Source: an uncultured virus (IMG/VR IMGVR_UViG_3300021400_004107) (Duplodnaviria > Heunggongvirae > Uroviricota > Caudoviricetes). From it: a stretch of 20,000 bases of DNA. This document shows positions 1 through 15,718 of the stretch, piece by piece. The DNA is taken from the IMG/VR virus record IMGVR_UViG_3300021400_004107, one strand, 5' to 3'. Every line of letters begins with the position of its first letter. The first letter of the stretch is position 1. A model generated the notes under the pieces. It was not told the DNA's origin. It did no database searches and saw only the letters and a program-made list of their open reading frames with translations. The position numbers and the translations under genes are program-made.

Positions 1-1356
1 GAGGATCTTTACTACAACGGGATCCACATTGCGACACACTCCGACCTTAAGGACAAGGATCAGACTTTCGACATTCCTGAGCTGCACACGACTGCTTCTA
101 CGGCAATCGGCAATACAGTTGAGTATTCGGATCAGGCAGTAGTTACTGACCGTGTCTTCTACAGCAATCTCGTACCCGGTAAGGAATACGAGATCACGGG
201 TACACTGGTAGTCAAGGCTTCCGGTGAGTCTGTCAAGGATGCTGAGGGACACGAAGTTACAGCAACTGTTACTTTCACTCCGGAAACGACTGAAGGATAT
301 GTCGACGTCGTATTCACATTCGACGCTACTGTCTATGTCGGTGAAACACTCGTTGCCTTCGAGACTCTGTCTCACAAGGGCATTGAGTATGTTGCTCACG
401 CTGACCTCGAAGACGAAGATCAGACGGTCTATGTACCTGAGATCCACACAACGGCTTCGACAGCTATAGGCAATGTCGTTGAGTATTCCGAACAGGCAAC
501 TGTAACAGACCGCGTATTCTATACAGGTCTTACGGTCGGCAAGACTTACGAAGTAACCGGTACGCTGGTTGTTAAGTCCACCGGCGATACAGTCAGAGAT
601 GCTAACGGCGAGGCCATCGTTGCAATGGCTGCTTTCACGCCTGAGACATCCGAAGGCTTCGTAGATGTCACATTCGTATTCGACGCAACGCTCTATCAGG
701 GCGAAGCTCTCGTAGCGTTTGAGACATTGACTTACGAAGGTATCGTGTACGCAGTACACACAGACCTCGAAGACGAGGATCAGACGGTCTATGTACCTGA
801 GATCCACACAACGGCTACTGACGCCAACGGCAATAAGGTATTCCAGGCTACCGAATCTGCGACTATCGTAGATGAGATCGCTTACGAGAACCTTGAGCCC
901 GGCACGATCTACCGTGCTGACGGTGTTCTTATGGATAAGTCCACAGGCGCTCCTCTCCTGATCAATGGTCAGGAAGTACACGCAAGTGTCGAGTTTACGC
1001 CTGAGACTCCTGACGGCACTGTCACGGTGACATTCACGTTCAACGCGAGCGCACTTGCAGGCAAGAGCCTTGTAGTCTTTGAGAACGTCTACGACATCTC
1101 CGGTGCGTTTGTCGTTAACCAGGAGACAGGCGAAGAGGTCTTCGATGAAACCATAGAGACACTCGTTGCAACACACGAGGATCTTGAGGACGAGGGCCAG
1201 ACAGTTACGATCACGGAAGCACCTAAGACAGGTGACACTTCAGACATGAGCGGCCTGGCAACAGGCGCCATGATCACTGCAGGTGTTGCTGCTGTTGCAG
1301 GCGCAGCTTTCGTAGCTCTTCGCAAGAAGAATAAGAGCCAGGGCGGTGAGGCGTAA
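1..1356 (+). CDS. Sortase-anchored surface protein with VaFE (T-Q ester bond) repeats, 5'-truncated by the window edge
   Basis: Frame 1 is open from base 1 (EDLYYNGIHIATHSDLKDKDQT...) to TAA 1354-1356. It has ~120-aa repeats with LVAFE/LVVFE and HxDLEDEDQT motifs. The C-terminus has APKTG, a hydrophobic helix and a basic tail (RKKNK). Confidence 0.9.
   Translation, partial: EDLYYNGIHIATHSDLKDKDQTFDIPELHTTASTAIGNTVEYSDQAVVTDRVFYSNLVPGKEYEITGTLVVKASGESVKDAEGHEVTATVTFTPETTEGYVDVVFTFDATVYVGETLVAFETLSHKGIEYVAHADLEDEDQTVYVPEIHTTASTAIGNVVEYSEQATVTDRVFYTGLTVGKTYEVTGTLVVKSTGDTVRDANGEAIVAMAAFTPETSEGFVDVTFVFDATLYQGEALVAFETLTYEGIVYAVHTDLEDEDQTVYVPEIHTTATDANGNKVFQATESATIVDEIAYENLEPGTIYRADGVLMDKSTGAPLLINGQEVHASVEFTPETPDGTVTVTFTFNASALAGKSLVVFENVYDISGAFVVNQETGEEVFDETIETLVATHEDLEDEGQTVTITEAPKTGDTSDMSGLATGAMITAGVAAVAGAAFVALRKKNKSQGGEA
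60..1210 (+). repeat. Intragenic tandem domain repeats, period ~360 bp
   Basis: gacctcgaagacga(a/g)gatcagacggtctatgtacctgagatccacacaacggct occurs at 403-456 and 763-816, 360 bp apart. gagtattc occurs at 121 and 481. Confidence 0.9.
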
Positions 1357-1377
1357 AGCCTCCCGCTTAAGGCTTCC

Positions 1378-1439
1378 TTCTTAGGCTGACAGCGGGCCTC
1401 GGAGCTTAGTGCTTCGGGACCCGTTACTGAGCTTAAGAA
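1378..1439 (+). other. Long imperfect intergenic stem-loop between adhesin and sortase
   Basis: TTCTTAGGCT (1378-1387) pairs with AGCTTAAGAA (1430-1439), enclosing an inner GC-rich stem. No U-tract follows. Confidence 0.6.
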
Positions 1440-1513
1440 AGAGCAGAAGAGAGTTATCGCTCTAGCCGTTTCTCTTATCTGCTTGCGTGTTTATAAGAAA
1501 GGACAGTATTTCC

Positions 1514-2341
1514 ATGAACAGATTGACTCTCGTTCGGGTGCAGAACGGTGGCAAGAAACTGCTTCTTTTAATTTGCCTTGCAGCTGTGTGTGTCTGCGGA
1601 TATTTCCTTGTCCGTATGCTTTTAATAGAGGAAGCACAGAAGATAGGGCAACAGGAATACTGGCATCTATCTGAAGAGATGGGTCCTGAAGACGAGACGC
1701 CCGAAGAGAGACTTGTCGAGGTTCAGCTCGCTGAGCCTTTAGAGGTTTTGCCTGAATACGCGGATATGCTTGCCGAGTATCCGAACTTTGCTGGGTGGAT
1801 CAGTATCCCTGATACTGAGTTCAGTTACCCGGTCATGATTGCTCCGGAAGAAGATCCTAATTACTATCTATTTCATAACTATGAGGGAACTCGTACCGAC
1901 CTCGGTTGCCCGTATATCCCGTATTACAGTAGCTACGATGCGGATAACGTAATGATATATGGTCATCATATCAGAAATCACCGCATGTTTGGCTTTCTCG
2001 AGAATTACCAGGACGAGGATTTCTATAACGAGCACCGCTTCATATTCTATGATACGCCCTATCAGCATCGCATTTACTATATTGTGTCGGTGATGATCAT
2101 ATCGGTAGAAGATCCGAGATTCCATTTCCAGGATTTCGTTAACTGGGGCGGGATCGGGCAGTCGCATTTTTATAATCAGGAGTGTTATGACCGCAACATT
2201 TTCGACTCGGACACTCTGCCTGATGATGGAGACAAATTGCTCACATTAGTTACTTGTGAATATTCCATTCCAAATGGCAAAGGCCGATTGGTCATAGTGG
2301 CACAAGATGTTACTGCTTATGACACCGAATCTGAGAATTAA
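1514..2341 (+). CDS. srtB: Class B sortase
   Basis: N-terminal TM anchor, GWISIPDT..YPV, YYL.HNY.G, IYGHH (catalytic His), LTLVTC (catalytic Cys) and GRLVIVA (Arg). AAGGA lies before ATG 1514; an alternative GTG start is at 1487. Confidence 0.92.
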   Translation: MNRLTLVRVQNGGKKLLLLICLAAVCVCGYFLVRMLLIEEAQKIGQQEYWHLSEEMGPEDETPEERLVEVQLAEPLEVLPEYADMLAEYPNFAGWISIPDTEFSYPVMIAPEEDPNYYLFHNYEGTRTDLGCPYIPYYSSYDADNVMIYGHHIRNHRMFGFLENYQDEDFYNEHRFIFYDTPYQHRIYYIVSVMIISVEDPRFHFQDFVNWGGIGQSHFYNQECYDRNIFDSDTLPDDGDKLLTLVTCEYSIPNGKGRLVIVAQDVTAYDTESEN

Positions 2342-4658: not shown

Positions 4659-4682
4659 GGAAGGATTCTCGAGGTGCCCGTT

Positions 4683-4835: not shown

Positions 4836-4837
4836 TT

Positions 4838-5155
4838 ATGATCGTAGTTTTTATTGCATGTGCTGTTCTCGGGATAGTAATCGCAAGTGTACTGTTAACG
4901 CGCACCGAAAGACTTTGGCAAATGGTCATAGTAACGGCTGCTGCGTCATTCTTAATTGCGTTCGGCGGAGTCGGTGTGATAGACGAGTATAAGAAGTACA
5001 CAGCTCCCGCACCCTCAACTGTCACTGTTCACTTTATCGAGAGCGACAGATATGTCGAGTATGAAAACGCTCAATACTATTCAGACACCGGCAAGATTGT
5101 CCTGGAAGACGGCTCCGTAGTACAGCTCGCTAATGCCGAGATTACTTGTGAATAA
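4838..5155 (+). CDS. Hypothetical membrane protein (2 TM)
   Basis: RBS aggagaggag before ATG 4838, in frame with track ORF 4769-5155. Confidence 0.7.
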   Translation: MIVVFIACAVLGIVIASVLLTRTERLWQMVIVTAAASFLIAFGGVGVIDEYKKYTAPAPSTVTVHFIESDRYVEYENAQYYSDTGKIVLEDGSVVQLANAEITCE

Positions 5156-5181
5156 TAAGAATACTGAAAGAAGGACTAAGC

Positions 5182-5601
5182 ATGGGCGTGACGATAACAG
5201 CAACCAAGTCTTCATATTCATTCGACATGGGCTGTGGTGGGTTCTTTGATCTTAGACAGAATATCGCTCACATTCTCAATGAAGAACTGGGCGAGGTCTA
5301 TGAGACGCTGATACATTGTCACAGCCGTGAAGCTTTTGAAGAGCACGACAGAAGGGCTAGCAGGGTCATCGCTAAGTACGATCTCGACAGGTATAGCGGT
5401 GTCTTAGACTTCCTGTACAGTAGTGATTGCGGTGGAAGCGCTAACTATAAGGTCTGTAAGCAGATCTACGATCTCATTAAGGATGTGGACTTCGGAGATA
5501 AGTGCTTCAGGTACGCTATGCGTGCACACAACGACTACGAAGAGTTCAAGGCATTCTTAATGGAGTGTTACTCGCACAGAAGATCGATGCGTTGGTATTA
5601 A
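5182..5601 (+). CDS. Hypothetical protein
   Basis: 139-aa ORF with RBS aagga. Confidence 0.75.
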   Translation: MGVTITATKSSYSFDMGCGGFFDLRQNIAHILNEELGEVYETLIHCHSREAFEEHDRRASRVIAKYDLDRYSGVLDFLYSSDCGGSANYKVCKQIYDLIKDVDFGDKCFRYAMRAHNDYEEFKAFLMECYSHRRSMRWY

Positions 5602-5614
5602 GGAGGCCAAGAAA

Positions 5615-5902
5615 ATGTTCCTGATCGTCTTTCTTTCTTTTATGATTGGTCTCGGTATCTTCCTTGCTGTAAAGGGCTTAAGAGAATGGGACGAAACCAA
5701 CTTTATGCTCGGTATCGGTATGACCATATTATTTGCCTTATCGATTTTAGGTACGGTACTTGAATACTCGGTCCCGTTTGTGCAAGTCGGTATCGGTATC
5801 GGAATAGGCGCACTGTCTTTTGTTTCTGTGTGTCTTATCATACGCTTCCTGTCCTGGTTGTATCTGAATACAGACAAGCTTGACTGGATAAACTACTTAT
5901 AA
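5615..5902 (+). CDS. Hypothetical membrane protein (3 TM)
   Basis: RBS aaggagg; highly hydrophobic. Confidence 0.7.
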   Translation: MFLIVFLSFMIGLGIFLAVKGLREWDETNFMLGIGMTILFALSILGTVLEYSVPFVQVGIGIGIGALSFVSVCLIIRFLSWLYLNTDKLDWINYL

Positions 5903-6034
5903 CTAAAGAGGAGAATTTGCGATATCTCGTGTGGGGATGACACAAATCAAACAATCGTAGCAGTAAAAGTCACTTAAGGCGATAAAGAGCGAGGAAAGCA
6001 AGAATATCTCAGCTCGTTATAATTAAGATAACAC

Positions 6035-6067
6035 AGCCGTACGGGAAGTTTTTCTTGTACGGCTTTT
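6035..6067 (+). terminator. Rho-independent terminator
   Basis: AGCCGTACGGGAA / TTCTTGTACGGCT stem followed by T residues. Confidence 0.7.
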
Positions 6068-6092
6068 GCATTATTAGATCAGGAGGAATCGG

Positions 6093-6482
6093 ATGGATCC
6101 GATGAAGATTACTGCAGGGGAGCATAAAGCTTTCTTAAAGGCTTTAACCCCCGACCAGTCGGAAGAGCTCAAGGAACTGGGTCTCAAGTGGAGTCCATTC
6201 CGTGCGCGAGGTTGGACTTACGAGCATCTTGGCGGGAACAATTTCAAATTCACTGCACCGAATAGTAAGTATTTCTTCGCGCACATGGATTTCGACAGCG
6301 GCAACATTATTTACACGGGGCCGCAGGGTGAGGAGATGTCACCCGGGTCTTGTGTGGGAAGGAATTTCGAATGCAGAGGCGTCAGAGCCGTTCGGGTTAC
6401 TGCTAAAACAGTCGCCAGAGCGGTGTTTTATTACGAGAGACTGAAGTATCAATTGTCACTCGAGGAACAAGATAAGGAGTAA
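6093..6482 (+). CDS. Hypothetical protein
   Basis: RBS aggagg; 129-aa ORF. Confidence 0.75.
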   Translation: MDPMKITAGEHKAFLKALTPDQSEELKELGLKWSPFRARGWTYEHLGGNNFKFTAPNSKYFFAHMDFDSGNIIYTGPQGEEMSPGSCVGRNFECRGVRAVRVTAKTVARAVFYYERLKYQLSLEEQDKE

Positions 6483-6486
6483 GACT

Positions 6487-7557
6487 ATGTCAGGTATGAG
6501 CCCGGATCTGTATTTACGCTTCATGCATAAGTTTACAGCAGATGTGTTAGAGGACTTCAACCCCACAAATACGCCGCTATCCAAACTTCCTGTTATTGAC
6601 TTCTGGACTTCAAATTGGGATCCCAGAGAGTTTAACGACAGACCCGATTACCATGACTGGGTGGTCAAGAACGGTTTCGATGCTTTCTTGCCACCGTTTT
6701 CTGCTTGCTGGGTCAAGGTTATGGACCATTGCGCTCTCGTAAGGGCCAGCAGAGATTTTCTGCAGTTCCTTATCTGCGGCAAGATGGTCTTCGATAAGGT
6801 AAACGGGGATCGCCTGGCTTTGTTTAATGTCAAAGGAATGGGTTATCCGTTTATATCTTGCGCTTTGTCTCAGGTTGAGAGAGATACTCTCAACGACTCA
6901 TGGCGTTATACGATTACTAATGGTATCGCGGACCTGTTTATGAGCTTCGATGATCAGGAGTGCAAAGATGTACTTCGAAAGTATCAGATACCGGAATCCT
7001 GCCTTCCCGGAATAAAAGAAAATATGGAGATCAATCTCTCCGAGAACATGTCTCAGGATTTCTTGGACGAGTGGTATGCGCTGTCTAATTGTGTTATGGC
7101 TGCTCTTGCCGTAACGAACTATCTGTTATCAAGACGCTCCATCGAGAAGGCAGAGAAGAAATGCATCGTCATTCCCGATTCGGTCAAGCTTTTCGAAGAA
7201 GACCGTCAGGAGCAGAAACGAATTATCAAAAACCTGAAGGAGTATTCTTTCGAGCACGTCACGATCTTATCCACTGATCCGCCTAAGCGCGTTACTGAGC
7301 GCAACATAGATAAGCTGTATGCCAGAGAGCCATACCAGATCCACACTCCCGCCTGGCTTGTTTCGGAGCATACCAGAGCACCGGCCCGTGCTCATGAGCG
7401 CCATCTTAAGGACGGGCGCGTCATCCAGGTCAGAGAGGGCTCGCATACGGCTACGGTTTCTGCACATGTAAATCAGCACAAAGGTATAGAAACGCCTAAG
7501 CCTGACATTGCCGAGTTCAGAGAGACTCTGCAGGTCTGGGAAGGCCGAGGATATTAA
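6487..7557 (+). CDS. Hypothetical phage-type protein with His-rich C-terminal motif
   Basis: 356-aa ORF with RBS aaggag. C-terminal WLVSEHTR...AHERHLKDGRVIQV resembles the VRGHWR-type motif of phage proteins. Confidence 0.75.
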   Translation: MSGMSPDLYLRFMHKFTADVLEDFNPTNTPLSKLPVIDFWTSNWDPREFNDRPDYHDWVVKNGFDAFLPPFSACWVKVMDHCALVRASRDFLQFLICGKMVFDKVNGDRLALFNVKGMGYPFISCALSQVERDTLNDSWRYTITNGIADLFMSFDDQECKDVLRKYQIPESCLPGIKENMEINLSENMSQDFLDEWYALSNCVMAALAVTNYLLSRRSIEKAEKKCIVIPDSVKLFEEDRQEQKRIIKNLKEYSFEHVTILSTDPPKRVTERNIDKLYAREPYQIHTPAWLVSEHTRAPARAHERHLKDGRVIQVREGSHTATVSAHVNQHKGIETPKPDIAEFRETLQVWEGRGY

Positions 7558-7576
7558 CTAATATGAGGAGGTTCAT

Positions 7577-7876
7577 ATGGAAGTTTATGTAACCAGTATT
7601 TATGACAACGATTCCGACACATCCGATCTCAAAGTGTTCGAGACGAAGGAACAGGCCCAGGCTTACGCCTATTCGGAATACGAGAAGATCTATCTTCAGC
7701 ACCAGAACGACGGCGACTTAGACTGTGACAGTTTTGTTCCGAAGAGTGAATTCTGGCCGGGAGACTTGGGTGAGCAGGATGTATACGCAGTCATTCAGTG
7801 TTATGACATGCACATCACGTTTACCATTGCTACCAGAGAGGTTGAACGCACCCTTGAGATAGGGAGGTGCAGCTGA
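7577..7876 (+). CDS. Hypothetical acidic protein
   Basis: RBS gaggagg; 99 aa. Confidence 0.75.
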   Translation: MEVYVTSIYDNDSDTSDLKVFETKEQAQAYAYSEYEKIYLQHQNDGDLDCDSFVPKSEFWPGDLGEQDVYAVIQCYDMHITFTIATREVERTLEIGRCS

Positions 7877-8052
7877 TGGGGATACTGAAACTGCATCAGG
7901 AAGACGGAAGTGAGATCTTCATTGCTGCGGATGACATACAGGCATTCTACCCGAAGACTAACAGCTCTTCGGCCATAGTGTTCAAGAGTCACGGTCAGCT
8001 GATCGTTAAGGAGACAGCAGATGAAATAAACTTAATGCTCAAAGGAGGATAA
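7876..8052 (+). CDS. FlbD/SwrD-like small protein
   Basis: TGATG overlap with the previous gene and RBS ggaggt. The pattern ILKLH..DG..IFI..DDI...S.IVF..G.LIVKETADEI resembles the FlbD family. Confidence 0.55.
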   Translation: MGILKLHQEDGSEIFIAADDIQAFYPKTNSSSAIVFKSHGQLIVKETADEINLMLKGG

Positions 8053-8056
8053 TACG

Positions 8057-8407
8057 ATGGGAAAGTATGGCTCAGGCCTGTCTTCCGGACAGGTTGCAAA
8101 TCTGGAGAAAGAGGAGATAAGAGAGGCCCTTAACGGGCGTATCAGGGTAGACGAGAACGAGGACGGCTTTGTCTATGCTCCTTGTGACGATAAGGAGAGA
8201 CTCAACAGTATCATTCTTCATGCGTATGATGCGATCTATTTCCAGCTTAATCAGTCGCTGGCATCTGCCAGGGCTCTCGAGAAGATGTACCACGATATGG
8301 GCGGTACCGTTAACCTTCCGAAGTATCAGGAGGCGCTTCTTGCAACCGCCATGACTGACGAGTATATCTACGAAGACGATGAAAAAGATGACGACGGAGA
8401 AGAATGA
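8057..8407 (+). CDS. Hypothetical protein with acidic tail
   Basis: RBS aaggagg. Confidence 0.75.
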   Translation: MGKYGSGLSSGQVANLEKEEIREALNGRIRVDENEDGFVYAPCDDKERLNSIILHAYDAIYFQLNQSLASARALEKMYHDMGGTVNLPKYQEALLATAMTDEYIYEDDEKDDDGEE

Positions 8408-8419
8408 GGAGGTATGTAG

Positions 8420-8809
8420 ATGGAATTACACCATTCTGATCCTGAGATCACTGATGACGGCGACAAGCTTGAATTCTCTGGCGCATATGCATCGTTCTAC
8501 ATGCTTTCGACGTACATATACTCCGAACCGATGTATGTTTTCCAGAAACTGATCCGGAAATCGTCTCTGTCCGCCGAGAACTTATACTCTATGACATTGT
8601 CAGTCGAGCAACTGGCAGAGGGCGAAGGAAAGTCAGTTCACTTGATAGATGCGCCGAGAAGTTTCAGCCTGAACGGTCTTGATAAAACAGAGCTCATGGA
8701 GGCTTTTATTACACTGGTCAGTAATCTCGGCCAGTATGGATTCAACGCTATAGGCTTTTTACCGGGCACCGTTCTGTCCGTTGAGGCGGAAGGAGGTGCC
8801 GATGTCTGA
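8420..8809 (+). CDS. Hypothetical protein
   Basis: RBS gaggaggt. Confidence 0.75.
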   Translation: MELHHSDPEITDDGDKLEFSGAYASFYMLSTYIYSEPMYVFQKLIRKSSLSAENLYSMTLSVEQLAEGEGKSVHLIDAPRSFSLNGLDKTELMEAFITLVSNLGQYGFNAIGFLPGTVLSVEAEGGADV

Positions 8810-8981
8810 TCTGGATGTGACAGTGCGAGAGACTATCGCCAAGTATCACTTGACGGAGGATAGTGCTCCCAAAGAAGTGCTTCAGGCAGCAATAGCGGAG
8901 TTTGGCCTCTCGGAAGGGGGCATGTATGCGGCGGAGATGCGTAACATCTTGTATGCGAACAAAAGAAAGAAAATGACATAA
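8802..8981 (+). CDS. Hypothetical protein, 59 aa
   Basis: RBS aaggaggt before ATG 8802, in frame with track ORF 8781-8981. Confidence 0.7.
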   Translation: MSDLDVTVRETIAKYHLTEDSAPKEVLQAAIAEFGLSEGGMYAAEMRNILYANKRKKMT

Positions 8982-8992
8982 CTGATAAAGCC

Positions 8993-9021
8993 TTGCCGTT
9001 TCTGAAAGATAGAGTTATAAT
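8993..9021 (+). promoter_or_regulatory. Sigma70-type promoter
   Basis: TTGCCG (8993-8998), 17 bp, TATAAT (9016-9021). Confidence 0.75.
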
Positions 9022-9027
9022 AAGCCT

Positions 9028-9273
9028 ATCCATAGGGATCGTGTTACAGAAACCTGTGAGGCCTGTAACCTTTTAAGAATTCTCAAGGGTTATTCTAAGG
9101 AAACGTTTTCACTCATATCCAAATACCTCGAAACCAATGCTCAAGGCAACGTTACTTCTCCTAATCGCTGAATATTGACACCAAGGCAACGCTCATTACT
9201 CATTACAGCTTCTATTTAATTTGAAGGATTGCCGCCTTTCGTTTGCTTCATAGCCTACGGGAGGCGGTATTTC
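9028..9273 (+). ncRNA. Candidate small RNA with repeat-spacer architecture
   Basis: Lies between a promoter and a terminator-like hairpin (GCCGCCTTTCGT 9231-9242 / ACGGGAGGCGGT 9257-9268) with no long ORF. It has two 5' hairpins, then AAGG(A/C)AACG at 9097, 9143 and 9183. Confidence 0.55.
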
Positions 9274-9295
9274 TAATTGTGTTTGTGATAAGGAC

Positions 9296-9344
9296 TTGCA
9301 TTATTTCGTAAGTTGGCTATAATATACATATAGATATTTCTATA
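9296..9344 (+). promoter_or_regulatory. Promoter of the tRNA cluster with palindromic operator
   Basis: TTGCAT (9296-9301), 16 bp, TATAAT (9318-9323). TATAGATATTTCTATA at 9329-9344 is a 15/16 match to the palindrome at 4243. Confidence 0.7.
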
Positions 9345-9358
9345 TAGAACTTTGACAA

Positions 9359-9433
9359 GCTCGCATGGCTCAAAGGTAGAGCAGTTGTTTCGTAATCAAC
9401 AGGTTCCGGGTTCAAGTCCCGGTGTGAGCTCCA
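9359..9433 (+). tRNA. tRNA-Thr (anticodon CGT)
   Basis: Cloverleaf: acceptor GCTCGCA/TGTGAGC, D stem GCTC/GAGC, anticodon loop TTCGTAA, T arm CCGGG-TTCAAGT-CCCGG, encoded CCA. There is a U31-U39 mismatch. Confidence 0.93.
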
Positions 9434-9627
9434 GCAGATCTCTTCGCGGCGGTTGTCATACCAGGCTTTTGTAAGCTCGCTCCTGACTCGGAAGATGCGT
9501 TCGCGAAAAAGGGTAGTTTTCATCTTCCGGGTACTCCTTCAAGTTAAGCGAACTTTCGGCATCGGTTTTCGTTTCGGCTTTCTGCTGTTCCGATCGCCAC
9601 TACCATACAGTCAGAAAGCCGGGATAT

Positions 9628-9702
9628 CGCGGAATGGAGCAGCGGCAGCTCGTCGGGATCATAGCCCGAAGGTCGCAGGTTCGAATCCTGCTTCCGTCAC
9701 CA
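9628..9702 (+). tRNA. Initiator tRNA-fMet (anticodon CAT)
   Basis: C1:C72 mismatch, three consecutive G-C pairs in the anticodon stem (TCGGG/CCCGA), loop ATCATAG, T arm GCAGG-TTCGAAT-CCTGC, ends in ACCA. Confidence 0.93.
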
Positions 9703-9745
9703 GTTGGGTTATAATAAAGGAAACAAGTATTAAGGAGAGATAACA

Positions 9746-9916
9746 ATGGAGAAGAAGATCGTTTGCGCTACACCTGAGCAGGTCAAGAAGTCTGGCGAGG
9801 AGATCTGCAAGAGATTTCCTGTATCTATGAATATGCTCGCCGGCAATGAGGAGAAGGCGCGCGAGCTGCTTAAGGAGAAGGAAAATGAAAGAGACTCTTC
9901 TTACCCCGGCAGATAA
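9746..9916 (+). CDS. Small protein, 56 aa, inside the RNA island (not in ORF track)
   Basis: RBS aaggag; MEKKIVCATPEQVKKSGEEICKRFPVSMNMLAGNEEKARELLKEKENERDSSYPGR*. Confidence 0.65.
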   Translation: MEKKIVCATPEQVKKSGEEICKRFPVSMNMLAGNEEKARELLKEKENERDSSYPGR

Positions 9917-10096
9917 CAACTAATAACGTATATCAGGGATTATTATGCTTTGGAACTTACATAAGTGATAATTCCTTGTTATAACAACATGCCCTCCGAG
10001 GTTTTCGGACTGACGGTTAAAGACGAGCGTTTTCGGACGTGAGCAAAGTAGATGATGTGTCACCCAACTGCGAGTCGCAAAAGGCAACATTCACAT

Positions 10097-10480
10097 GGGG
10101 GCGCCCGGTTTCGACGGGGCTCTTCAAACAAGATAAGCGGGCGGTGCCATTTCCCGGTAAGACACCTAAATCCTTTCCGGGAGCGCAGAAGTAACTGCAA
10201 ACGAACCTGAGCTCGCAGTAGCCTGAATCTGCAGTGCCCTGTGCCATCTGCCGCACAGAAGCACTCACATCGCAGACCTCGGGATAGGGTAGGTCAAGAT
10301 CCCGGTCCGGTTAGCAAGGTTTTTCTCTTTCCTGCCATAAGGTCCTTAACTTAAAGGAGAACTGATAAAGCTCGTTTGACGGTGTACTAACCTTTGTCAG
10401 TATTTTGATCACCGTATACGCCCGAAGAAAGTCTTGTCCACGAGTTTCGGACAGGGGTTCGATTCCCCTCACCTCCACCA
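10097..10480 (+). ncRNA. ssrA: tmRNA (one-piece), tag peptide (A)ANEPELAVA*
   Basis: 5' GGGGGCG...GGTTTCGACGGG and 3' GGACAGGGGTTCGATTCCCCTCACCTCCACCA. G3:U70 Ala identity pair. The resume codon follows TAACT: GCA AAC GAA CCT GAG CTC GCA GTA GCC TGA (10197-10226). Confidence 0.93.
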
Positions 10481-10485
10481 AATAT

Positions 10486-10635
10486 GAAGTAGCGGCAGAA
10501 TGGCGATTGTTAAATGAACGGTAGTAATGAGTTAAGGTGCAGTGGGGTTCGAGTCCCCTAACGGATAGGTTCAACTCCTACTCGTGCAGGCGCAATATCT
10601 TTAACATAAAGGTTCAAATCCTTTCTACTTCACCA
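10486..10635 (+). ncRNA. 150-nt tRNA-like RNA with a large structured insertion replacing the anticodon loop
   Basis: Acceptor GAAGTAG/CTACTTC plus ACCA; D arm with GG; T arm AAAGG-TTCAAAT-CCTTT. The insert has two more T-loop hairpins, GGGG-TTCGAGT-CCCC and TAGG-TTCAACT-CCTA. Confidence 0.75.
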
Positions 10636-10640
10636 AAGGT

Positions 10641-10858
10641 CTGATTTCGAACATGGGCTTTAGAAGACCTCTTAAACTTATAAGCCAATGTAAAAGTTTG
10701 TATGTTCTGTTCAAAACATGCCAGTCGAATCAGGGTGTACACGAAGTGACTGTAAGATGATCGTGGCACGTGGGAAAGTTAAGTAAGTTAAAGTGAACCC
10801 ATTTTGTGTGTAAACACAGAACGATATAACTGCTGACAGTCGGGAAAGACCGACTTTT
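10641..10858 (+). ncRNA. Candidate structured ncRNA between the tRNA-like RNA and tRNA-Lys
   Basis: Pairings CTGATT(T)CGA/TCGAATCAG, TACACGAAGTG/CATTTTGTGTG and a terminal AGTCGG-GAAAGA-CCGACT hairpin. No long ORF. Confidence 0.45.
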
Positions 10859-10860
10859 AT

Positions 10861-10937
10861 GTTTCGTTAGCTCAATCGGTAGAGCACTCGACTTTTAATC
10901 GAGGGGTACCAGGGTTCGAATCCCGGACGAAGCACCA
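10861..10937 (+). tRNA. tRNA-Lys (anticodon TTT)
   Basis: Acceptor GTTTCGT/ACGAAGC, anticodon arm CTCGA-CTTTTAA-TCGAG, T loop TTCGAAT, ACCA. The T stem has one bulged or mismatched A. Confidence 0.93.
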
Positions 10938-11027
10938 TTTGAGATAAGGATTAAGAAAAGCATGGCTTTGTACGGGCAGCGGGGCTTAGACCCCGTCGCT
11001 CCAGTTTCTCCGTTTGGAGGTTCGATT

Positions 11028-11492
11028 ATGTCCCGTTGTATAGAATTTACTCCTGAGAACCTTGATAAGCTTAAGCGTATAGAGCGTGAGGCCTATGACG
11101 GTACCGGCTATATGCAGATGCAATGGTGTGAAACGTGGGCAGATATTGCCGGATACTGTGAGTGTTCTCTTGAGCATCTCCACATCGCTTTTATTGACGA
11201 CGGATATGTCATCGCTGCTTGCCATGAAGACTACATGGAAATCGTCGATCTTGCCTCGTCAGGCAGGAATATGAACCTGTTTGCAGTATGGGATTTTTTG
11301 AAGGAACTTAATAAGCCGATGGTTTTCGATGCCAGGGAGAGTACCTCGTACAGGCTTATAAAACTCCTGGAACGCAGAGGCGAGATCTCGATCGTAGAAG
11401 ACGCCCCACATCAATGGGGAGGAGAGACCTTCCATGACGTAAGATGCACTTTCAATCTGTCCCGGCATCCGGAGATAGGCCGATACACATAA
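11028..11492 (+). CDS. GNAT-like fold protein (putative acetyltransferase)
   Basis: RBS ggagg before ATG 11028. The pattern LKRIEREAY...GYVIA...EIVDLA...DARESTSY resembles divergent RimI/GNAT proteins. Confidence 0.5.
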   Translation: MSRCIEFTPENLDKLKRIEREAYDGTGYMQMQWCETWADIAGYCECSLEHLHIAFIDDGYVIAACHEDYMEIVDLASSGRNMNLFAVWDFLKELNKPMVFDARESTSYRLIKLLERRGEISIVEDAPHQWGGETFHDVRCTFNLSRHPEIGRYT

Positions 11493-11502
11493 AGAAAGGA
11501 AT

Positions 11503-12066
11503 ATGCTTGTTATGAACCTTGAGAAATTCAGATCCCTGTCTAAATCTTACCGAAAGCTGGTCAAGAAGGAGAACCAGATTAAGAAAGTGTGTATCTGGCT
11601 TCCTGTCGGCTGGCTTATCTGGTTCCTGATGATCGGAACCATTACGCTTAAGCTGTCGAACGCGGATCCCGGACATCCGATGACTGCGATCTGGGCTTTG
11701 ATATTCACGCTTTGTCCTATTGTCTGGGGCATCTTCATGTTTAAGAAGAGCCAGCTGAAGAAGGACAGGATCGAAGAGTCTGAAGACATGCGAAACACGG
11801 TCATTAAGATCCTGAAGCACGAATACGCATCGGTATCCGGTACTAACTTCGACGATACACTGACTTCTGTACTGGAGTCTTCGGGCCTGCCTATGCAGGT
11901 CCGAGACAGCTGGTGGCTGGGTATCGACACGATACGCTACATCGAGGTGCTACTCTTGGAGTCGTATACAGGCAAGGAATTTTCACGTTTCCAAAAGGGC
12001 ATTCTTGCGACGGTTTTGGAAGAAAAGCATCAGCCTACTTCGCGCTTAAAAAGAGACGGAGAGTGA
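11503..12066 (+). CDS. Hypothetical membrane protein (2 TM)
   Basis: RBS aaagga; two hydrophobic helices. Confidence 0.7.
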   Translation: MLVMNLEKFRSLSKSYRKLVKKENQIKKVCIWLPVGWLIWFLMIGTITLKLSNADPGHPMTAIWALIFTLCPIVWGIFMFKKSQLKKDRIEESEDMRNTVIKILKHEYASVSGTNFDDTLTSVLESSGLPMQVRDSWWLGIDTIRYIEVLLLESYTGKEFSRFQKGILATVLEEKHQPTSRLKRDGE

Positions 12067-12232
12067 CACAATATATTGTGTTACCTGTCACTTAAGCCGT
12101 TTAGGCAAAAGAAATACGCATCTTTCGCAGGTGGCTATACTTAAACTGTGATTTAAGTCAATCATCGGCGGCCCATATACCGGGCCCGGACTCCGTGCCG
12201 ATTGGTCAAAAGCGGAGCCTCTTTCTGTGGTG

Positions 12233-12265
12233 GAGGGAGCTCGAGTTTAGCTCCCTCTTTTTTTT
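12233..12265 (+). terminator. Rho-independent terminator
   Basis: GAGGGAGCT/AGCTCCCTC stem followed by T8. Confidence 0.85.
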
Positions 12266-12308
12266 ATTACAACATGAGCCGTACGGAATACGGCAGAAAG
12301 GAACTTTC

Positions 12309-12746
12309 ATGAAAAAATATCTTTATGTAACAAGTGCTCTGGTTCTTACAGCAGCGCTCATGGCAGGCTGTGCTTCCAAGGAGGCTTCCATCAACGGCCA
12401 TTACAAAACAGATCTTGACGTAGGCGGTTCCGTCACCGTGAACGAAGCCGGTATGACTAACCCCGATGTTCTCCTGCCCGTAGAGATCGTTCTTGCTGAC
12501 GGGGAGTACACGATCACGCTTGACACCGACGCGATGGCCAGAGATTTCGAAGATGCACAGACTGACGAGCACTATGTCGTTGATTCAGTAGAAGCGGACG
12601 AGGAAGTTGTCTACACAGGTCATTACACCGTAGAAGACTCTGTTATTACTTTTGACGGTGATATGCACTTTACTGCCAACGTAGAAGACGGAACGCTTGT
12701 TGCGGATCATTTCCTCGGTTTTGATGATGTAACATTCGCAAAATAA
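12309..12746 (+). CDS. Lipoprotein
   Basis: RBS aaagga; MKK, hydrophobic core and LMAGC lipobox; acidic, beta-rich mature domain. Confidence 0.8.
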   Translation: MKKYLYVTSALVLTAALMAGCASKEASINGHYKTDLDVGGSVTVNEAGMTNPDVLLPVEIVLADGEYTITLDTDAMARDFEDAQTDEHYVVDSVEADEEVVYTGHYTVEDSVITFDGDMHFTANVEDGTLVADHFLGFDDVTFAK

Positions 12747-12788
12747 AAAATCAATATGCCGGATGTCCCCGGCGGAAAGGTTAATCTT

Positions 12789-13760
12789 ATGAGAAAAGCA
12801 AAATTCGGTAAAAAGTCTATTATCGCTATGGCAGGCGCCGGCGGTATCTTAGCCCTTGCGATCGGCGGAGTCGTTCTGCTCCCTAAGCTCCTTAACAAAA
12901 GCCCTGAAGCGCTGCATATCAATCTCGCGTCAGAGCTTGACTGCACAGACGCAGCCTCCGACGTACTTTCGGATATTACCGGTGCGAATTATAACTTCGA
13001 TGGTGAAGTATATGCGCATTTCACCATGTCCCTCGACGACGGCGAGTTCACTATGGACCTTGACGAAGATCAGCTCCGAGAAGACCTGGACGCGTTCTTC
13101 TCCAACAATGTCGAGGGTATCTTAACTTCTCAGCTCTCTGCTGCAGGCGTCGGTACCGATGCTTCGGCGCTTGACGCATATGCTCAGGAGATCGGCTATG
13201 CCAACTGGGCGGCTGTTGTTGATGCGACTGCTGCTTCTGTCATGGACTCCGACGGTTATCTCGCCTTAACAGACGGGGATGTTAACTATGAAGGTACCTA
13301 TGAGTACACAGAAGACGGCACGGCTCTTAACTGCTATGTCGGATCTAAAACTGTATTTGTAGCCGAGATCGGCGACGACGGTAAGATCTACATCGACTAC
13401 GACTTCGACCGCAGCGCCCCTGTCATGCTCTACGATTACTTCAATCGCGGTTGCACTCTCGAGTTTGCCAAGGCTTCCGGAAACAGTGATCGTGACTCTG
13501 ATTCCGACAGGCCGTCTTCAGGCAATTCTTCTGACGGCGTAGTCGTTAATGTCTATATTGTTCCTGCAGAGACTACTGCAGAGCCTACAGAGACTACGGC
13601 AGAACCTACTCCTGAGCCTACACCTGAGCCTACACCCGAACCTACTCCTACACCTGTACCCGAGACACAGCCTTCCGAGACAGCGCCTGTAGAGACAGAG
13701 GCTCCGGCCGAGACAGAAGCGCCTGCTCCCGCCGAAGGTGAAACTTCTGCGGAGGGTTAA
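12789..13760 (+). CDS. Membrane-anchored extracellular protein with Pro/Thr/Glu-rich tail
   Basis: Basic N-terminus and TM helix; acidic domain similar to 12309-12746; (PTPE)n and ETxA repeats at about 13565-13740. Confidence 0.8.
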   Translation: MRKAKFGKKSIIAMAGAGGILALAIGGVVLLPKLLNKSPEALHINLASELDCTDAASDVLSDITGANYNFDGEVYAHFTMSLDDGEFTMDLDEDQLREDLDAFFSNNVEGILTSQLSAAGVGTDASALDAYAQEIGYANWAAVVDATAASVMDSDGYLALTDGDVNYEGTYEYTEDGTALNCYVGSKTVFVAEIGDDGKIYIDYDFDRSAPVMLYDYFNRGCTLEFAKASGNSDRDSDSDRPSSGNSSDGVVVNVYIVPAETTAEPTETTAEPTPEPTPEPTPEPTPTPVPETQPSETAPVETEAPAETEAPAPAEGETSAEG

Positions 13761-13762
13761 CC

Positions 13763-14041
13763 ATGGCTAGTTTATCGGCGCAGGTACCGTGGGGCTTCGT
13801 GAACTTTATCAGGGAGACTCTGCCTAATGTCGACCCTGTCATAGCATCTATAGCAGGGCTCGTTACTTTTATGGCCATACTGTTCGCCGTTCTTATCTGG
13901 TATCAGTCAGAAACCCGAGACCTCAGATCGCTCTGGAAGTACATCCTTGTCGCAGGCATCTGTGCTGTTGCGTTCGTTTCGCTGTTTGGCTTGTTGATCG
14001 TTTATGCAAGATCTCGAGGCGTCGTTCTGCCTATTAACTAA
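13763..14041 (+). CDS. Hypothetical membrane protein (2 TM)
   Basis: RBS ggagg; hydrophobic. Confidence 0.7.
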   Translation: MASLSAQVPWGFVNFIRETLPNVDPVIASIAGLVTFMAILFAVLIWYQSETRDLRSLWKYILVAGICAVAFVSLFGLLIVYARSRGVVLPIN

Positions 14042-14089
14042 GGCCACGACCCTCGAATCTGAAATACATATTTCGTGAGGTGAATCACT

Positions 14090-14680
14090 ATGATCTTAAT
14101 CATCGGACGCTCGGGCAGCGGTAAAGACTTCCTTGCCCGCGAACTTGCCAAGCAGGGCTTATCCCAGGTGAAGTCGTACACCACGCGCCCTCCTCGCTAT
14201 GAGGGTGAGAATACGCACATCTTCCTATCTGCTCAAGAGGCTAAAGGCTTTAGCGATAAGATAGCCACAACAGTCATCAACGGCTATGAATACTTCGCCA
14301 CTTCTTCGCAGATGAAGGATAACGATGTCTATATTATCGATCCCAGAGGCACTGCGGAGCTTTTGCGGAATTGCCCCGAAGTCACTTTTGACATCTGCTA
14401 CCTGCAGGCAGACGATTCCTGTCGCCGTGCTATGGCTGTAGGGCGTGGATCTGACCTTGCTAAAGAAGCAAAGGTATACGAGATGCGCAATGCTGACGAG
14501 GATGCTCAGTTCCGCGAGTTCGAAAACATGCTCAAGGACACTTATGCATTCTACGCCTTTAAGAATAAGTACCCCAACGTAAGACAAGTCATTATCGGCC
14601 ATAACGACTATCGACCCGAGACCATGAACAATCTCGTTCAGTCACTGACTGCCCCTGTCTGTGCGGGGCGTGGTACTTAA
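14090..14680 (+). CDS. Guanylate kinase-like P-loop NMP kinase
   Basis: Walker A GRSGSGKD, SYTTRPPR..E, H.F, Y.Y and YIIDP.G, all typical of Gmk-like proteins. Confidence 0.85.
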   Translation: MILIIGRSGSGKDFLARELAKQGLSQVKSYTTRPPRYEGENTHIFLSAQEAKGFSDKIATTVINGYEYFATSSQMKDNDVYIIDPRGTAELLRNCPEVTFDICYLQADDSCRRAMAVGRGSDLAKEAKVYEMRNADEDAQFREFENMLKDTYAFYAFKNKYPNVRQVIIGHNDYRPETMNNLVQSLTAPVCAGRGT

Positions 14681-14713
14681 GGCTTTGGCAGGTAAGAGAG
14701 GAGGACTAAGGTT

Positions 14714-15031
14714 ATGTATGTCAATTTCGATCAAGGCTGGGTAGCGAAAGCACATCCAGGTGCGGCTTTGACCGGTTATCTCTTTGACGGTGATCCAACG
14801 CCGACGGATGCTCCGGAAGGATTCTCGGTGTTGTGCAACACGGAGCTGGTAGATGACCTGAGACGGATCCGATTCGAGAACACGTTCAGACTGTTCTGGA
14901 CCGGTGAGGACGGGGAGGCGCACAAAGACTGGTTCGGTAAGACTTCCGTATATTTCGATGACTACCTGAATGTCTCGGAAGAACCCCGTTATTCAGTAGT
15001 AGCCCCGCTTGTCATATCGATGACGCGCTAA
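14714..15031 (+). CDS. Hypothetical protein
   Basis: RBS gaggagg. Confidence 0.7.
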   Translation: MYVNFDQGWVAKAHPGAALTGYLFDGDPTPTDAPEGFSVLCNTELVDDLRRIRFENTFRLFWTGEDGEAHKDWFGKTSVYFDDYLNVSEEPRYSVVAPLVISMTR

Positions 15032-15046
15032 AGTCGGAGGCTATGA

Positions 15047-15409: not shown

Positions 15410-15423
15410 AAAGGACTACAACT

Positions 15424-15702: not shown

Positions 15703-15718
15703 AGGGGTTAAAAAGAAC

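What the first reader, a model, noticed from the sequence alone, without database searches (positions are those of the whole stretch)
8990..11003. Dense 2-kb RNA island: tmRNA, three tRNAs and at least five unexplained structured RNAs
Seen: in an otherwise tightly protein-coding region, ~2 kb carries tRNA-Thr(CGU), tRNA-fMet, tmRNA, tRNA-Lys(UUU), a tRNA-like RNA and only one short ORF. Nearly every spacer folds into multi-stem structures. Established: large phages carry tRNAs and sometimes tmRNA, and tRNA-Lys(UUU) and tRNA-fMet are targets of anticodon nucleases such as PrrC and VapC. Inference: this may be a translation-rescue or counter-defence RNA operon, with intervening ncRNAs released by tRNA processing.
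Basis: partly seen in the sequence, partly recalled or inferred. Interest (0 to 1): 0.7.

Follow-up and report, generated by a model that had tools for sequence, protein, structure and literature searches.

The report
tRNA and tmRNA cluster on mobile element
A 2-kb stretch of a large, uncharacterised mobile element from animal-gut bacteria carries three tRNA genes, a ribosome-rescue tmRNA gene and a scrap of tRNA-derived sequence, a kind of cargo already known from huge phages and megaplasmids, and the claimed extra structured RNAs between them are not supported.

Summary
Confirmed: tRNA-Thr(CGU) 9359-9433, an initiator-type tRNA-Met 9628-9702, a full-length tmRNA 10097-10480 (tag ANEPELAVA) and tRNA-Lys(UUU) 10861-10937, all on the + strand. 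This 2-kb stretch is 8% coding, against 92% in the flanks.

Partly confirmed: the "tRNA-like RNA" (10487-10637) is tRNA/tmRNA-derived. It has three canonical T-arm motifs, a 7-bp acceptor and ACCA, but no cloverleaf.

Not supported: "at least five structured RNAs". No Rfam family matches, and the spacers fold no better than the coding flanks. One strong hairpin (9230-9269) looks like a terminator between two promoter-like sites.

Context: this is an unclassified element of at least 126 kb carrying an adhesin and a sortase, with no phage or conjugation hallmark in the window. Relatives at 95-97% identity in other animal-gut samples keep the whole island. Relatives at 58-72% protein identity lack it.

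RNA-library contigs identical to the window cover the tmRNA, the small ORF and two spacers.

Closest analogues are the tRNA+tmRNA cargo of megaplasmid pMP7017 and of huge phages. I found no evidence for counter-defence.

Verdict: a new member of a known kind, of modest interest.

The parts
8993..9021 (+). promoter-like site P1 (TTGCCG-17-TATAAT), directly after the stop of the upstream gene
   Evidence: It is one of only 3 TTGnnn-N16-18-TAnAAT matches on both strands of the 20-kb window. The consensus scan of 8500-11500 as a whole is not above chance (3 found, 3.7 expected).
9230..9269 (+). 13-bp hairpin followed by a T-rich tail (9270-9287): terminator-like. It is the only strongly non-random fold in the spacers.
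   Evidence: fold; windows 9160-9279 z -3.68, 9200-9319 z -4.46. The pairing was read. The terminator scan did not flag it, because the T run is interrupted.
9296..9323 (+). promoter-like site P2 (TTGCAT-16-TATAAT), 36 nt upstream of tRNA-Thr
   Evidence: Its position relative to the gene was read. Function is inferred.
9359..9433 (+). tRNA-Thr(CGU), CCA encoded
   Evidence: (64.9 bits).
9434..9627 (+). 194-nt spacer with two long hairpins (9486-9532 and 9575-9621), probably an inter-tRNA precursor spacer
   Evidence: z -1.31, not significant; I7, I11. An RNA-library contig of run X15 covers 9416-9631 with 0 differences.
9628..9702 (+). initiator-type tRNA-Met(CAU), CCA encoded
   Evidence: 54.1 bits; the 1-72 pair is flagged non-standard. 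A11:U24 and three G-C pairs were read from the alignment. It differs from the elongator tRNA-Met of G001/G002.
9746..9916 (+). 56-aa protein gene of unknown function with RBS AAGGAG
   Evidence: 2 homologue clusters at 93% and 63% identity; conserved RFPVSMNM.AGNEEKA core. No Pfam, PHROG, NCBIfam or PADLOC hit.
9917..10096 (+). 180-nt spacer ahead of the tmRNA, with no significant fold or similarity
   Evidence: z +0.33; z -0.2. It is bridged by the 811-nt RNA-library contig 9664-10474 of run X16.
10097..10480 (+). tmRNA (ssrA). The tag frame is 10197-10226 (ANEPELAVA*). The acceptor has G3:U70 and CCA.
   Evidence: 112.8 bits, E 9e-44, full model. The acceptor was read. RNA-library contigs lie at 10126-10474 (X15) and 9664-10474 (X16).
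10487..10637 (+). tRNA/tmRNA-derived piece: a 7-bp acceptor (10487-10493 / 10627-10633) plus ACCA, and three T-arm motifs at 10546-10556, 10568-10578 and 10611-10621. It has no D or anticodon arm.
   Evidence: 3 of 7 motif matches. D4 is 89% identical to the tmRNA T-arm, D3 is a 43-nt tandem duplication, and D6 is 87% identical to the 5' part of tRNA-Met; z 5.9 against 100 shuffles; no gene at default settings; 17.6 bits; fold z +0.04.
10638..10860 (+). 223-nt spacer ending in a terminator-like hairpin (10838-10855) plus TTTTAT, which abuts tRNA-Lys
   Evidence: terminator-like; z -1.08; window 10760-10879 z -2.29. An RNA-library contig of X15 covers 10650-10835.
10861..10937 (+). tRNA-Lys(UUU), CCA encoded, canonical anticodon loop CUUUUAA
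   Evidence: (60.5 bits; the loop is identical to a chromosomal tRNA-Lys(TTT)).
11028..11492 (+). first conserved backbone gene downstream (154 aa, unknown function). It marks the right edge of the variable region.
   Evidence: (15 homologues), (loci L001-L007; downstream synteny 11028-18288 kept in L004, L005 and L006).
1..2341 (+). VaFE / T-Q ester-bond repeat adhesin (partial) and class-B-like sortase. This is backbone and marks the left side of the variable region.
   Evidence: PF18202 2.7e-84; Sortase 2.8e-09; NF033903 7e-110; srtB 3.7e-29, below cut-off; the same pair is present in L005, L004 and L007.

Best explanation
The island is accessory translation cargo of a large mobile element (contig 126 kb; phage or plasmid/ICE undecided) of animal-gut Clostridia. 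It holds three tRNA genes (Thr-CGU, initiator Met, Lys-UUU) and a divergent but complete tmRNA, with one small protein gene in their midst. It sits in a variable slot between the element's adhesin/sortase genes and a conserved downstream module.

Inferred mechanism: transcription starts at the element's own sigma-70-type promoter(s) (P2 at 9296-9323, perhaps P1). It runs through tRNA-Thr, tRNA-fMet, the 56-aa gene and the tmRNA, probably to the hairpin at 10838-10855. Host RNase P and 3'-end nucleases then cut out the mature RNAs, all of which have CCA encoded. The tRNAs add to the host pool. The tmRNA, charged with alanine through its G3:U70 acceptor, rescues stalled ribosomes and tags products with ANEPELAVA.

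The spacers are leaders, trailers, a terminator and decayed or duplicated tRNA/tmRNA 3' pieces, not a set of five dedicated structured RNAs.

Shown: the genes, their integrity, the mobile and variable context, conservation in close relatives, and presence in RNA libraries. Inferred: the transcription units, the processing, and the benefit to the element.
For: Genes. Acceptor G3:U70, CCA ends and initiator marks: read.

Promoter-like sites are concentrated here: 2 of the 3 TTGnnn-N16-18-TAnAAT matches in 20 kb.

Variable slot: the distance from sortase to the A1 gene is 8.7 kb here against about 1.3 kb in L004 and L005. 0 of 6 relatives' loci (L002-L007, 58-72% identity in the A1 protein) have any tRNA or tmRNA.

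Close relatives keep the whole island. One 26,953-nt contig of run X8 spans 6000-14000 with 282 differences and 31 gaps. In run X3, the piece 8763-10474 has 50 differences in 1712 nt (97.1%), against 95.4% and 94.8% for the flanking pieces. 20 of 23 listed runs from 10 studies hold at least part of the stretch.

RNA libraries: in X16, an 811-nt contig identical to the window bridges 9664-10474 (k-mer depth 24.4, against 3.7-6.6 for its 7 other listed contigs). In X15 (another study), all 8 listed contigs lie within 9416-12569, and none lies in 6000-8936 or 12675-14000.

Not a recent host copy: 46-53% identity to 12 chromosomal tmRNAs, and only the last 60 nt or fewer match in the listed hits from 301 genomes.

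Published analogues: the 190-kb conjugative megaplasmid pMP7017 has 20 tRNA genes next to a highly transcribed tmRNA (PMC10832533, passages read). Huge phages and some large putative plasmids carry tmRNA (PMC7162821, passages read).
Against: No RNA ends, strands or levels are known. All runs laid were assembled contigs, which cannot show them, and RNA libraries can contain DNA.

The promoter and terminator scans of the region are not above chance as a whole: 3 against 3.7 expected, and 2 against 2.4.

Codon support is weak. The window's genes prefer AAG (70%) over AAA (30%), so a tRNA-Lys(UUU) is not the obvious supplement. ACG is 23% of Thr codons. The host is unknown, so codon compensation cannot be tested.

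No smpB was seen in the window.

The tag ends in VA, whereas 12 of 12 chromosomal tags examined end in AA, so its fate as a degradation signal is untested.

A rough bound leaves room for some constraint on the spacers. At most 50 differences fall in the 1184 nt of X3 piece 8763-10474 that lie outside the RNA genes.
Confidence: 0.62

Rival explanations
1. Counter-defence module. The element supplies replacement tRNA-Lys(UUU), initiator tRNA and tRNA-Thr(CGU) for host tRNAs that anticodon nucleases or toxins cleave on entry of the element. The tmRNA clears the ribosomes stalled as a result.
For: tRNA-Lys(UUU) (PrrC) and tRNA-fMet (VapC) are named as nuclease targets in PMC10264068 (passages read). 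Phage tRNAs that rescue infection from tRNA-depleting retron effectors are reported in PMC11555353 (listing and start of abstract only). The island lies in a variable accessory region of small unknown genes. The codon preference for AAG over AAA speaks against simple codon supplementation by tRNA-Lys(UUU).
Against: The anticodon loop of tRNA-Lys(UUU) is identical to a chromosomal one, so there is no loop-mutation signature. PMC10264068 states that phages generally avoid encoding tRNA-fMet where the anticodon itself is the target. No tRNA ligase, nuclease inhibitor or defence-related family was found among the 34 proteins scanned. With only three tRNAs, the overlap with known targets is weak statistics. 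The host and its defences are unknown.
Confidence: 0.15
2. The spacers encode new functional RNAs. In particular, 10487-10637 would be a matured tRNA-like minihelix with three T-loops (a decoy or substrate for tRNA-binding enzymes), and 9028-9290 would be a promoter-to-terminator sRNA.
For: The 7-of-7 acceptor pairing sits exactly next to a canonical T-arm and an encoded ACCA. Three T-arm motifs lie within 76 nt. P1 and the hairpin at 9230-9269 (z down to -4.46) frame about 250 nt with no credible ORF. RNA-library contigs cover spacers 9416-9631 and 10650-10835. The island piece is slightly more conserved than the flanks in X3 (97.1% against about 95%).
Against: No Rfam match. Folding energies are at background. 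The T-arms are explained by local duplication of the tmRNA T-arm and a 43-nt tandem copy. No listed RNA contig covers 10481-10649, and X16 has no depth over 8937-9470 (a hole proves little). The island is absent from all 6 more distant relatives, so no covariation test was possible.
Confidence: 0.13
3. This is an ordinary chromosomal ssrA/tRNA locus of an undescribed bacterium, not mobile cargo.
For: The whole contig could not be read. A chromosomal tmRNA with a tRNA-Thr(CGT) 117 nt away exists in one genome of the order (L020). No phage or plasmid hallmark gene was found in the window.
Against: There is no housekeeping gene among the 35 ORFs; all lie on one strand and most have no known family. 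Relatives sit on short MAG contigs, while those MAGs' own tmRNAs lie elsewhere. The island is present or absent among relatives of the same backbone. The tmRNA is much more divergent than chromosomal ones are from each other.
Confidence: 0.07

Closest known systems
tRNA array plus tmRNA of the conjugative megaplasmid pMP7017 of Bifidobacterium breve (PMC10832533)
   Same: A large mobile element of a Gram-positive gut bacterium with clustered tRNA genes and a tmRNA whose tag differs from the host's. There are further non-coding elements nearby. The published reading is translational support and adaptation of the tRNA pool to the element's codons.
   Different: pMP7017 has 20 tRNAs next to its replicase, a 397-nt tmRNA with a 12-residue tag ending LAA, and strand-specific transcriptomes. 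Here there are 3 tRNAs, a 384-nt tmRNA with a 9-residue tag ending AVA, no replicase in view, an undecided element type, and no sequence similarity to any PLSDB record beyond the universal 3' end.
tmRNA and tRNA genes of huge phages (PMC7162821)
   Same: tmRNA together with tRNAs as translation-related cargo of very large elements from gut and other metagenomes. That paper notes that large putative plasmids carry analogous sets.
   Different: No virion, terminase or other phage hallmark is seen here. Three of the element's protein families are absent from the viral contig collection. No phage record has a similar tmRNA beyond 36-72 nt at the 3' end.
Phage tRNAs that replace or evade tRNA-targeting defences (PMC10264068, PMC11555353)
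   Same: A mobile-element-borne tRNA-Lys(UUU), a species that PrrC-type nucleases attack.
   Different: The defining signature, anticodon-loop changes relative to the host tRNA, is absent in the one comparison possible. No companion repair enzyme is seen.
tRNA/tmRNA 3'-end fragments left by site-specific integration or decay (pseudo-tRNAs)
   Same: 10487-10637 consists of T-arm-plus-acceptor pieces. One is 89% identical to the neighbouring tmRNA's T-arm, and two form a tandem copy.
   Different: No integrase is nearby. The pieces are only 22-43 nt apart. The outer piece has a perfectly matching 5' acceptor strand 113 nt upstream, which simple att scars do not have. That integration leaves such fragments is recalled knowledge and was not tested here.

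Membership tests
tmRNA (Rfam RF00023) | Full-length match to the covariance model above the gathering score | tested here: met
   112.8 bits against 47, model positions 1-374 of 374, E 8.7e-44.
tmRNA (Rfam RF00023) | tRNA-like domain: acceptor stem with G3:U70, T-arm, 3' CCA | tested here: met
   5' GGGGGCG pairs with 3' CACCTCC followed by ACCA, giving G3:U and one C-A mismatch at pair 6. The T-arm is GGGGTTCGATTCCCC. The role of G3:U70 is recalled knowledge.
tmRNA (Rfam RF00023) | Internal tag reading frame starting at an Ala resume codon and ending at a stop | tested here: met
   ARAGORN gives ANEPELAVA*, gene positions 101-130, equal to window 10197-10226. The length and pattern resemble the 9-10-residue tags of 12 chromosomal tmRNAs, but 12 of 12 of those end in AA and this one ends in VA.
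tmRNA (Rfam RF00023) | Pseudoknots PK1-PK4 and SmpB partner | tested here: inconclusive
   Posterior probabilities are low across the PK2-PK4 part of the alignment. No SmpB-like protein is in the window. The rest of the contig is not readable.
tRNA (Rfam RF00005), three genes | Cloverleaf match above the gathering score, with an anticodon called by an independent program | tested here: met
   64.9, 60.5 and 54.1 bits against 29. ARAGORN calls Thr-cgt, Lys-ttt and Met-cat.
Bacterial initiator tRNA-fMet | No Watson-Crick 1-72 pair; A11:U24; three consecutive G-C pairs at the foot of the anticodon stem | tested here: met
   C1 faces C72 (flagged 'v'). The D stem is GAGC/GCUC. The anticodon stem is UCGGG/CCCGA. 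The elongator tRNA-Met of G001 and G002 have G1 paired and lack these marks. The list of defining marks is recalled.
tRNA (for 10487-10637) | Complete cloverleaf with D and anticodon arms | tested here: not met
   ARAGORN at default settings, with or without introns, calls no gene. Only lowered thresholds give mutually inconsistent calls. Rfam scores 17.6 bits against 29.
Tailed phage genome | Virion or packaging genes (major capsid, portal, terminase, tail) | tested here: not met
   None among the 35 window ORFs in Pfam, PHROGs or NCBIfam. Only 3 solid PHROG hits were found: two of unknown function and one guanylate-kinase-like. The AlphaFold model of the 356-aa protein is unusable (pLDDT 52). 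Only 20 kb of 126 kb is visible, so the test holds for the window alone.
Conjugative plasmid / ICE of Firmicutes | Relaxase, coupling protein, type IV secretion genes, replication or integration genes | tested here: not met
   None in the window. Only a surface adhesin plus sortase is present, which I recall as common on such elements. No plasmid record is related. The sortase's best plasmid hits are unrelated in context.
Nuclease-evading phage tRNA (PMC10264068) | Anticodon-loop sequence differs from the host's tRNA of the same anticodon | tested here: not met
   The loop CTTTTAA is identical in the window's tRNA-Lys and in G001's chromosomal tRNA-Lys(TTT). G001 is only a proxy host.
Codon-compensating tRNA cargo | The element uses the cognate codons more than its host does | not testable with these tools
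   Element usage: AAA is 30% of Lys codons and ACG is 23% of Thr codons. The host genome is unknown.

The most novel reading that the evidence does not exclude
The island is an entry-phase translation-protection module of a conjugative-type megaelement. It would supply a spare initiator tRNA, tRNA-Lys(UUU), tRNA-Thr(CGU) and a private tmRNA with an altered tag end. It would also supply a matured three-T-loop minihelix RNA (10487-10637) that serves as a decoy or sponge for tRNA-targeting nucleases or T-loop-binding enzymes.
Probability: 0.08. Interest if true: 0.7.

Novelty: new member of a known kind. Interest (0 to 1): 0.3.

Why it matters
The finding adds a Clostridia-type gut element to the short list of mobile elements that carry their own tmRNA together with tRNAs, here including an initiator tRNA. 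The published list so far covers huge phages and a few megaplasmids. The tmRNA is far from any chromosomal copy examined and has an unusual tag end (AVA). This makes it a simple test case for asking whether mobile-element tmRNAs merely add dosage or redirect tagged proteins. The case also shows that multi-stem folds read by eye in moderately AT-rich spacers are no evidence of structured RNAs, because the same energies occur in the coding flanks.

Tried and rejected
- **Whole genome, earlier findings, rest of the contig.** None was available.
- **Close DNA relatives.** None in the phage or plasmid collections; only tRNA-Lys and tmRNA 3'-end pieces matched.
- **Viral-contig scans.** Six scans found nothing: two flanking proteins, the tag DNA, and families A1, A3 and A4.
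- **Host inference.** By tmRNA DNA, only the universal 3' end matched in 203 of 301 genomes of one order. By tRNA DNA, tRNA-Thr had no match and tRNA-Met had partial 79-84% matches to elongators.
- **Function of neighbouring proteins.**
  - The Atlas look-ups gave no usable lead.
  - The A1 profile against Pfam and PDB gave nothing.
  - PADLOC gave nothing except one weak HTH hit.
  - The AlphaFold model of the 356-aa protein had pLDDT 52, so no fold search was run.
- **Sortase homologues.** They occur in both plasmid and 'phage' records and do not discriminate. The best plasmid hits, a 334-kb Subdoligranulum record and Butyrivibrio pNP243, are unrelated in context, and the former has no tmRNA.
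- **Permuted tmRNA reading of 10450-10552.** Rejected at 28.9 bits against 47; the score comes from the true tmRNA 3' end.
- **Similarity of spacer 9917-10096 to the tmRNA 3' region.** The repeat GTTTTCGGAC is not above shuffles.
- **Parts without cover in RNA contigs** (8937-9470 and 10539-10805 in X16; 10481-10649 in X15). No conclusion can be drawn.
- **A paper search linking ester-bond adhesins and sortases to conjugative elements** returned nothing useful.


Full report
**What is there**

ARAGORN finds four RNA genes on the + strand: tRNA-Thr(CGT) 9359-9433, tRNA-Met(CAT) 9628-9702, a tmRNA 10097-10480 with tag ANEPELAVA*, and tRNA-Lys(TTT) 10861-10937. Rfam confirms all four above gathering scores. 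The tmRNA scores 112.8 bits over the full model, and the tRNAs score 64.9, 54.1 and 60.5 bits. Rfam finds nothing else in the 20-kb window.

A permissive scan of 8900-11100 adds only sub-threshold noise. All four genes encode their CCA end.

The tRNA-Met has an unpaired 1-72 position (C facing C), A11:U24, and three G-C pairs closing the anticodon stem (alignment). These are the marks I recall as defining bacterial initiators. The elongator tRNA-Met genes of two related MAGs lack them.

The tmRNA acceptor has G3:U70 (read).

The stretch 8982-11027 is 8.4% coding, against 91.9% for the rest of the window. Its one gene (9746-9916, 56 aa, RBS AAGGAG) is real. It has two homologue clusters, at 93% and 63% identity, that keep a core motif. 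The gene after the island starts at 11028 behind a GGAGG, not at 10962.

**The spacers**

Whole-spacer folds give z-scores of +0.04 (10481-10640), -2.34 (8983-9358), -1.31 (9434-9627), +0.33 (9917-10096) and -1.08 (10638-10860) against dinucleotide shuffles.

I ran a 120-nt sliding window over 5000-15000:

| Window class | n | Mean z | Share below -2 |
|---|---|---|---|
| Spacers | 25 | -0.42 | 12% |
| Coding flanks | 193 | -0.46 | 10% |
| Real RNA genes | 23 | -0.21 | 4% |

So the folds seen by eye are what this sequence composition gives anywhere. The test is also weak, because the real RNA genes do not stand out either.

The one outlier is a 13-bp hairpin at 9230-9269 with a T-rich tail (z down to -4.46). 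It lies between two promoter-like sites, 8993-9021 and 9296-9323. Those two sites are 2 of only 3 TTGnnn-N16-18-TAnAAT matches on both strands of the window. I read this as terminator, then promoter, then tRNA-Thr.

A terminator-like hairpin at 10838-10855 abuts tRNA-Lys. The consensus scans as a whole are not above chance.

**The tRNA-like piece**

10487-10637 holds three of the window's seven GGTTCNANTCC motifs. The other four are the T-loops of the real genes, and 0.14 matches are expected by chance.

- The first T-arm is 89% identical over 19 nt to the tmRNA's T-arm, 90 nt upstream.
- The second and third are a 43-nt tandem copy.
- The 5' end resembles the 5' part of tRNA-Met.

This is the only spacer with significant similarity to the RNA genes (z 5.9). 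Six other spacers and three coding controls range from -1.5 to 1.5.

A 7-of-7 acceptor pairing plus ACCA encloses the piece. There is no D or anticodon arm. ARAGORN at default settings calls nothing, and Rfam gives 17.6 bits against 29. Its fold energy is at background.

Most likely it is duplicated and decayed tRNA/tmRNA sequence. A functional minihelix RNA is not excluded.

**Context**

No genome is held for the window. The window is part of a 126-kb metagenome contig (L001 is identical over the overlap).

All 35 ORFs are on the + strand. Few have any family:

- a VaFE / T-Q-ester adhesin and a class-B-like sortase at the left end;
- a guanylate-kinase-like protein;
- a YdjM-like protein;
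- a SAV1803-domain protein.

No phage or conjugation hallmark appears. No phage or plasmid record is related. Three protein families of the element are absent from the viral contig collection. Whether it is a phage, a plasmid/ICE or something else stays open. My odds are roughly 50% plasmid/ICE-like, 35% phage and 15% chromosomal island.

**Relatives**

The 154-aa protein downstream has 15 homologues, on contigs of up to 140 kb.

Six loci with relatives at 58-72% identity were fetched. Among them are a 271-kb contig and short contigs of two Clostridia MAGs. In three of them (L004, L005, L006) the downstream genes 11028-18288 are syntenic, and the adhesin/sortase lies upstream in L005, L004 and L007. 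None of the six has a tRNA or tmRNA. The gap between sortase and the A1 gene is about 1.3 kb in those loci, against 8.7 kb here. The island and some 16 small genes therefore fill a variable slot.

Much closer relatives do keep the island. 20 of 23 listed runs from 10 studies hold part of it. The runs are labelled gut, sheep gut and mouse gut, and two are possible sources of the window.

- One 26,953-nt DNA contig of run X8 spans 6000-14000 at about 96.5% identity.
- Run X3 covers the region in three pieces: 95.4% (6000-8717), 97.1% (8763-10474) and 94.8% (10445-14000).

Of the 38 differences listed for 6104-7179, 25 fall on third codon positions (my count). The flanks are therefore under protein-level selection. 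The island's slightly higher identity could come from its RNA genes alone, so constraint on the spacers is undecided.

**Expression**

All runs laid were assembled contigs. Ends, strand and level cannot be read from them, and DNA carry-over is possible.

Within those limits:

- The RNA library of the probable source sample (X16) has an 811-nt contig identical to 9664-10474. It bridges the tRNA-Met 3' part, the small gene, the spacer and the tmRNA.
- An RNA library of another study (X15) has identical contigs on 9416-9631, 9737-9938, 10126-10474, 10650-10835 and on genes up to 12569, but none on 6000-8936 or 12675-14000.

This fits a transcribed island that includes two spacers. It does not show stable spacer RNAs.

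**Origin of the tmRNA**

The two MAGs with distant relatives have their own tmRNAs, with tags ANDTELVAA and ADNTELVAA. Ten more chromosomal tmRNAs of that order have 9-10-residue tags. All 12 tags end in AA, and the window's tag ends in VA.

The window's tmRNA is 46-53% identical to these 12, which are a median 63.6% identical to each other. Across 301 genomes of the order, the listed matches cover only the last 60 nt or fewer.

It is thus an old, divergent copy, not a recent capture. I recall that engineered ssrA tags ending in LVA are still degraded in E. coli, so the tag may well remain a degron. This was not tested.

**Function**

The best-supported reading is ordinary translation cargo of a large mobile element, as described for megaplasmid pMP7017 and for huge phages. 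pMP7017 has 20 tRNAs and a highly transcribed tmRNA (PMC10832533, passages read). Huge phages and large putative plasmids carry tmRNA (PMC7162821, passages read).

Codon compensation cannot be tested without the host. The element's own preference for AAG (70%) over AAA does not favour it for tRNA-Lys(UUU).

The counter-defence idea rests only on the identity of two tRNAs. The anticodon loop of tRNA-Lys(UUU) equals a chromosomal one, and no repair or anti-defence gene was recognised. PMC10264068 (passages read) reports that phages mostly avoid encoding tRNA-fMet where the anticodon itself is the target.

**Verdict**

The four RNA genes and the tRNA-derived piece are real. The set of unexplained structured RNAs is not supported. 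The phage assignment is unproven.

This is a new member of a known kind of cargo. Two points are modestly interesting: the divergent tmRNA with its AVA tag end, and the triple-T-arm piece.

Noticed in passing
window 1-2341; L005 2-1816 and 3991-4734: A VaFE / T-Q ester-bond repeat adhesin and a class-B-like sortase belong to the conserved backbone of this element family. This is unusual cargo for a phage, and it is why I lean towards a plasmid/ICE-like element.
   Followed up: partly
window 2342-11027 versus L004 793-2161 and L005 4735-5985: The slot between the sortase and the 154-aa backbone gene is 8.7 kb here, holding about 16 small unknown genes plus the RNA island. In distant relatives it is about 1.3 kb and holds two unrelated small ORFs. 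It is a hot spot for accessory cargo.
   Followed up: partly
window 13563-13649 (inside ORF 12756-13760): Imperfect 12- and 21-nt tandem repeats lie within a coding region. The X8 relative lacks 21 nt at 13590, so the repeat number varies between strains.
   Followed up: no
window 6487-7557: A 356-aa protein with an invariant His/Arg/Lys-rich C-terminal third has 9 homologues, on contigs of up to 125 kb. No family match was found, and the AlphaFold model is too poor to use (pLDDT 52).
   Followed up: partly
L020 1501-2067 (genome G056): A chromosomal tmRNA (tag AEKQPVLAAA) lies 117 nt from a divergently oriented tRNA-Thr(CGT), the same pair of genes as in the island. The tRNA is only 52 of 75 identical to the window's. 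This may be coincidence or an old linkage.
   Followed up: partly
window about 9187 (run X15): One RNA-library contig follows the window up to 9187 and then continues for about 255 nt with unlike sequence (table 7). This is either a variant of the first spacer in another sample or an assembly join.
   Followed up: no
window 9142-9151 and 9182-9191: An exact 10-nt direct repeat, CAAGGCAACG, occurs 40 nt apart in the first spacer, and a third similar copy, AAGGCAACATTCA, lies just before the tmRNA (10081-10093). No function is known, and short two-copy repeats are often chance.
   Followed up: no
window 11028-11492 and alignment A1: The 154-aa backbone protein has invariant Cys34, Cys44, Cys46 and His66 among 13 sequences, which suggests a metal site. 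No Pfam or PDB relative was found.
   Followed up: partly
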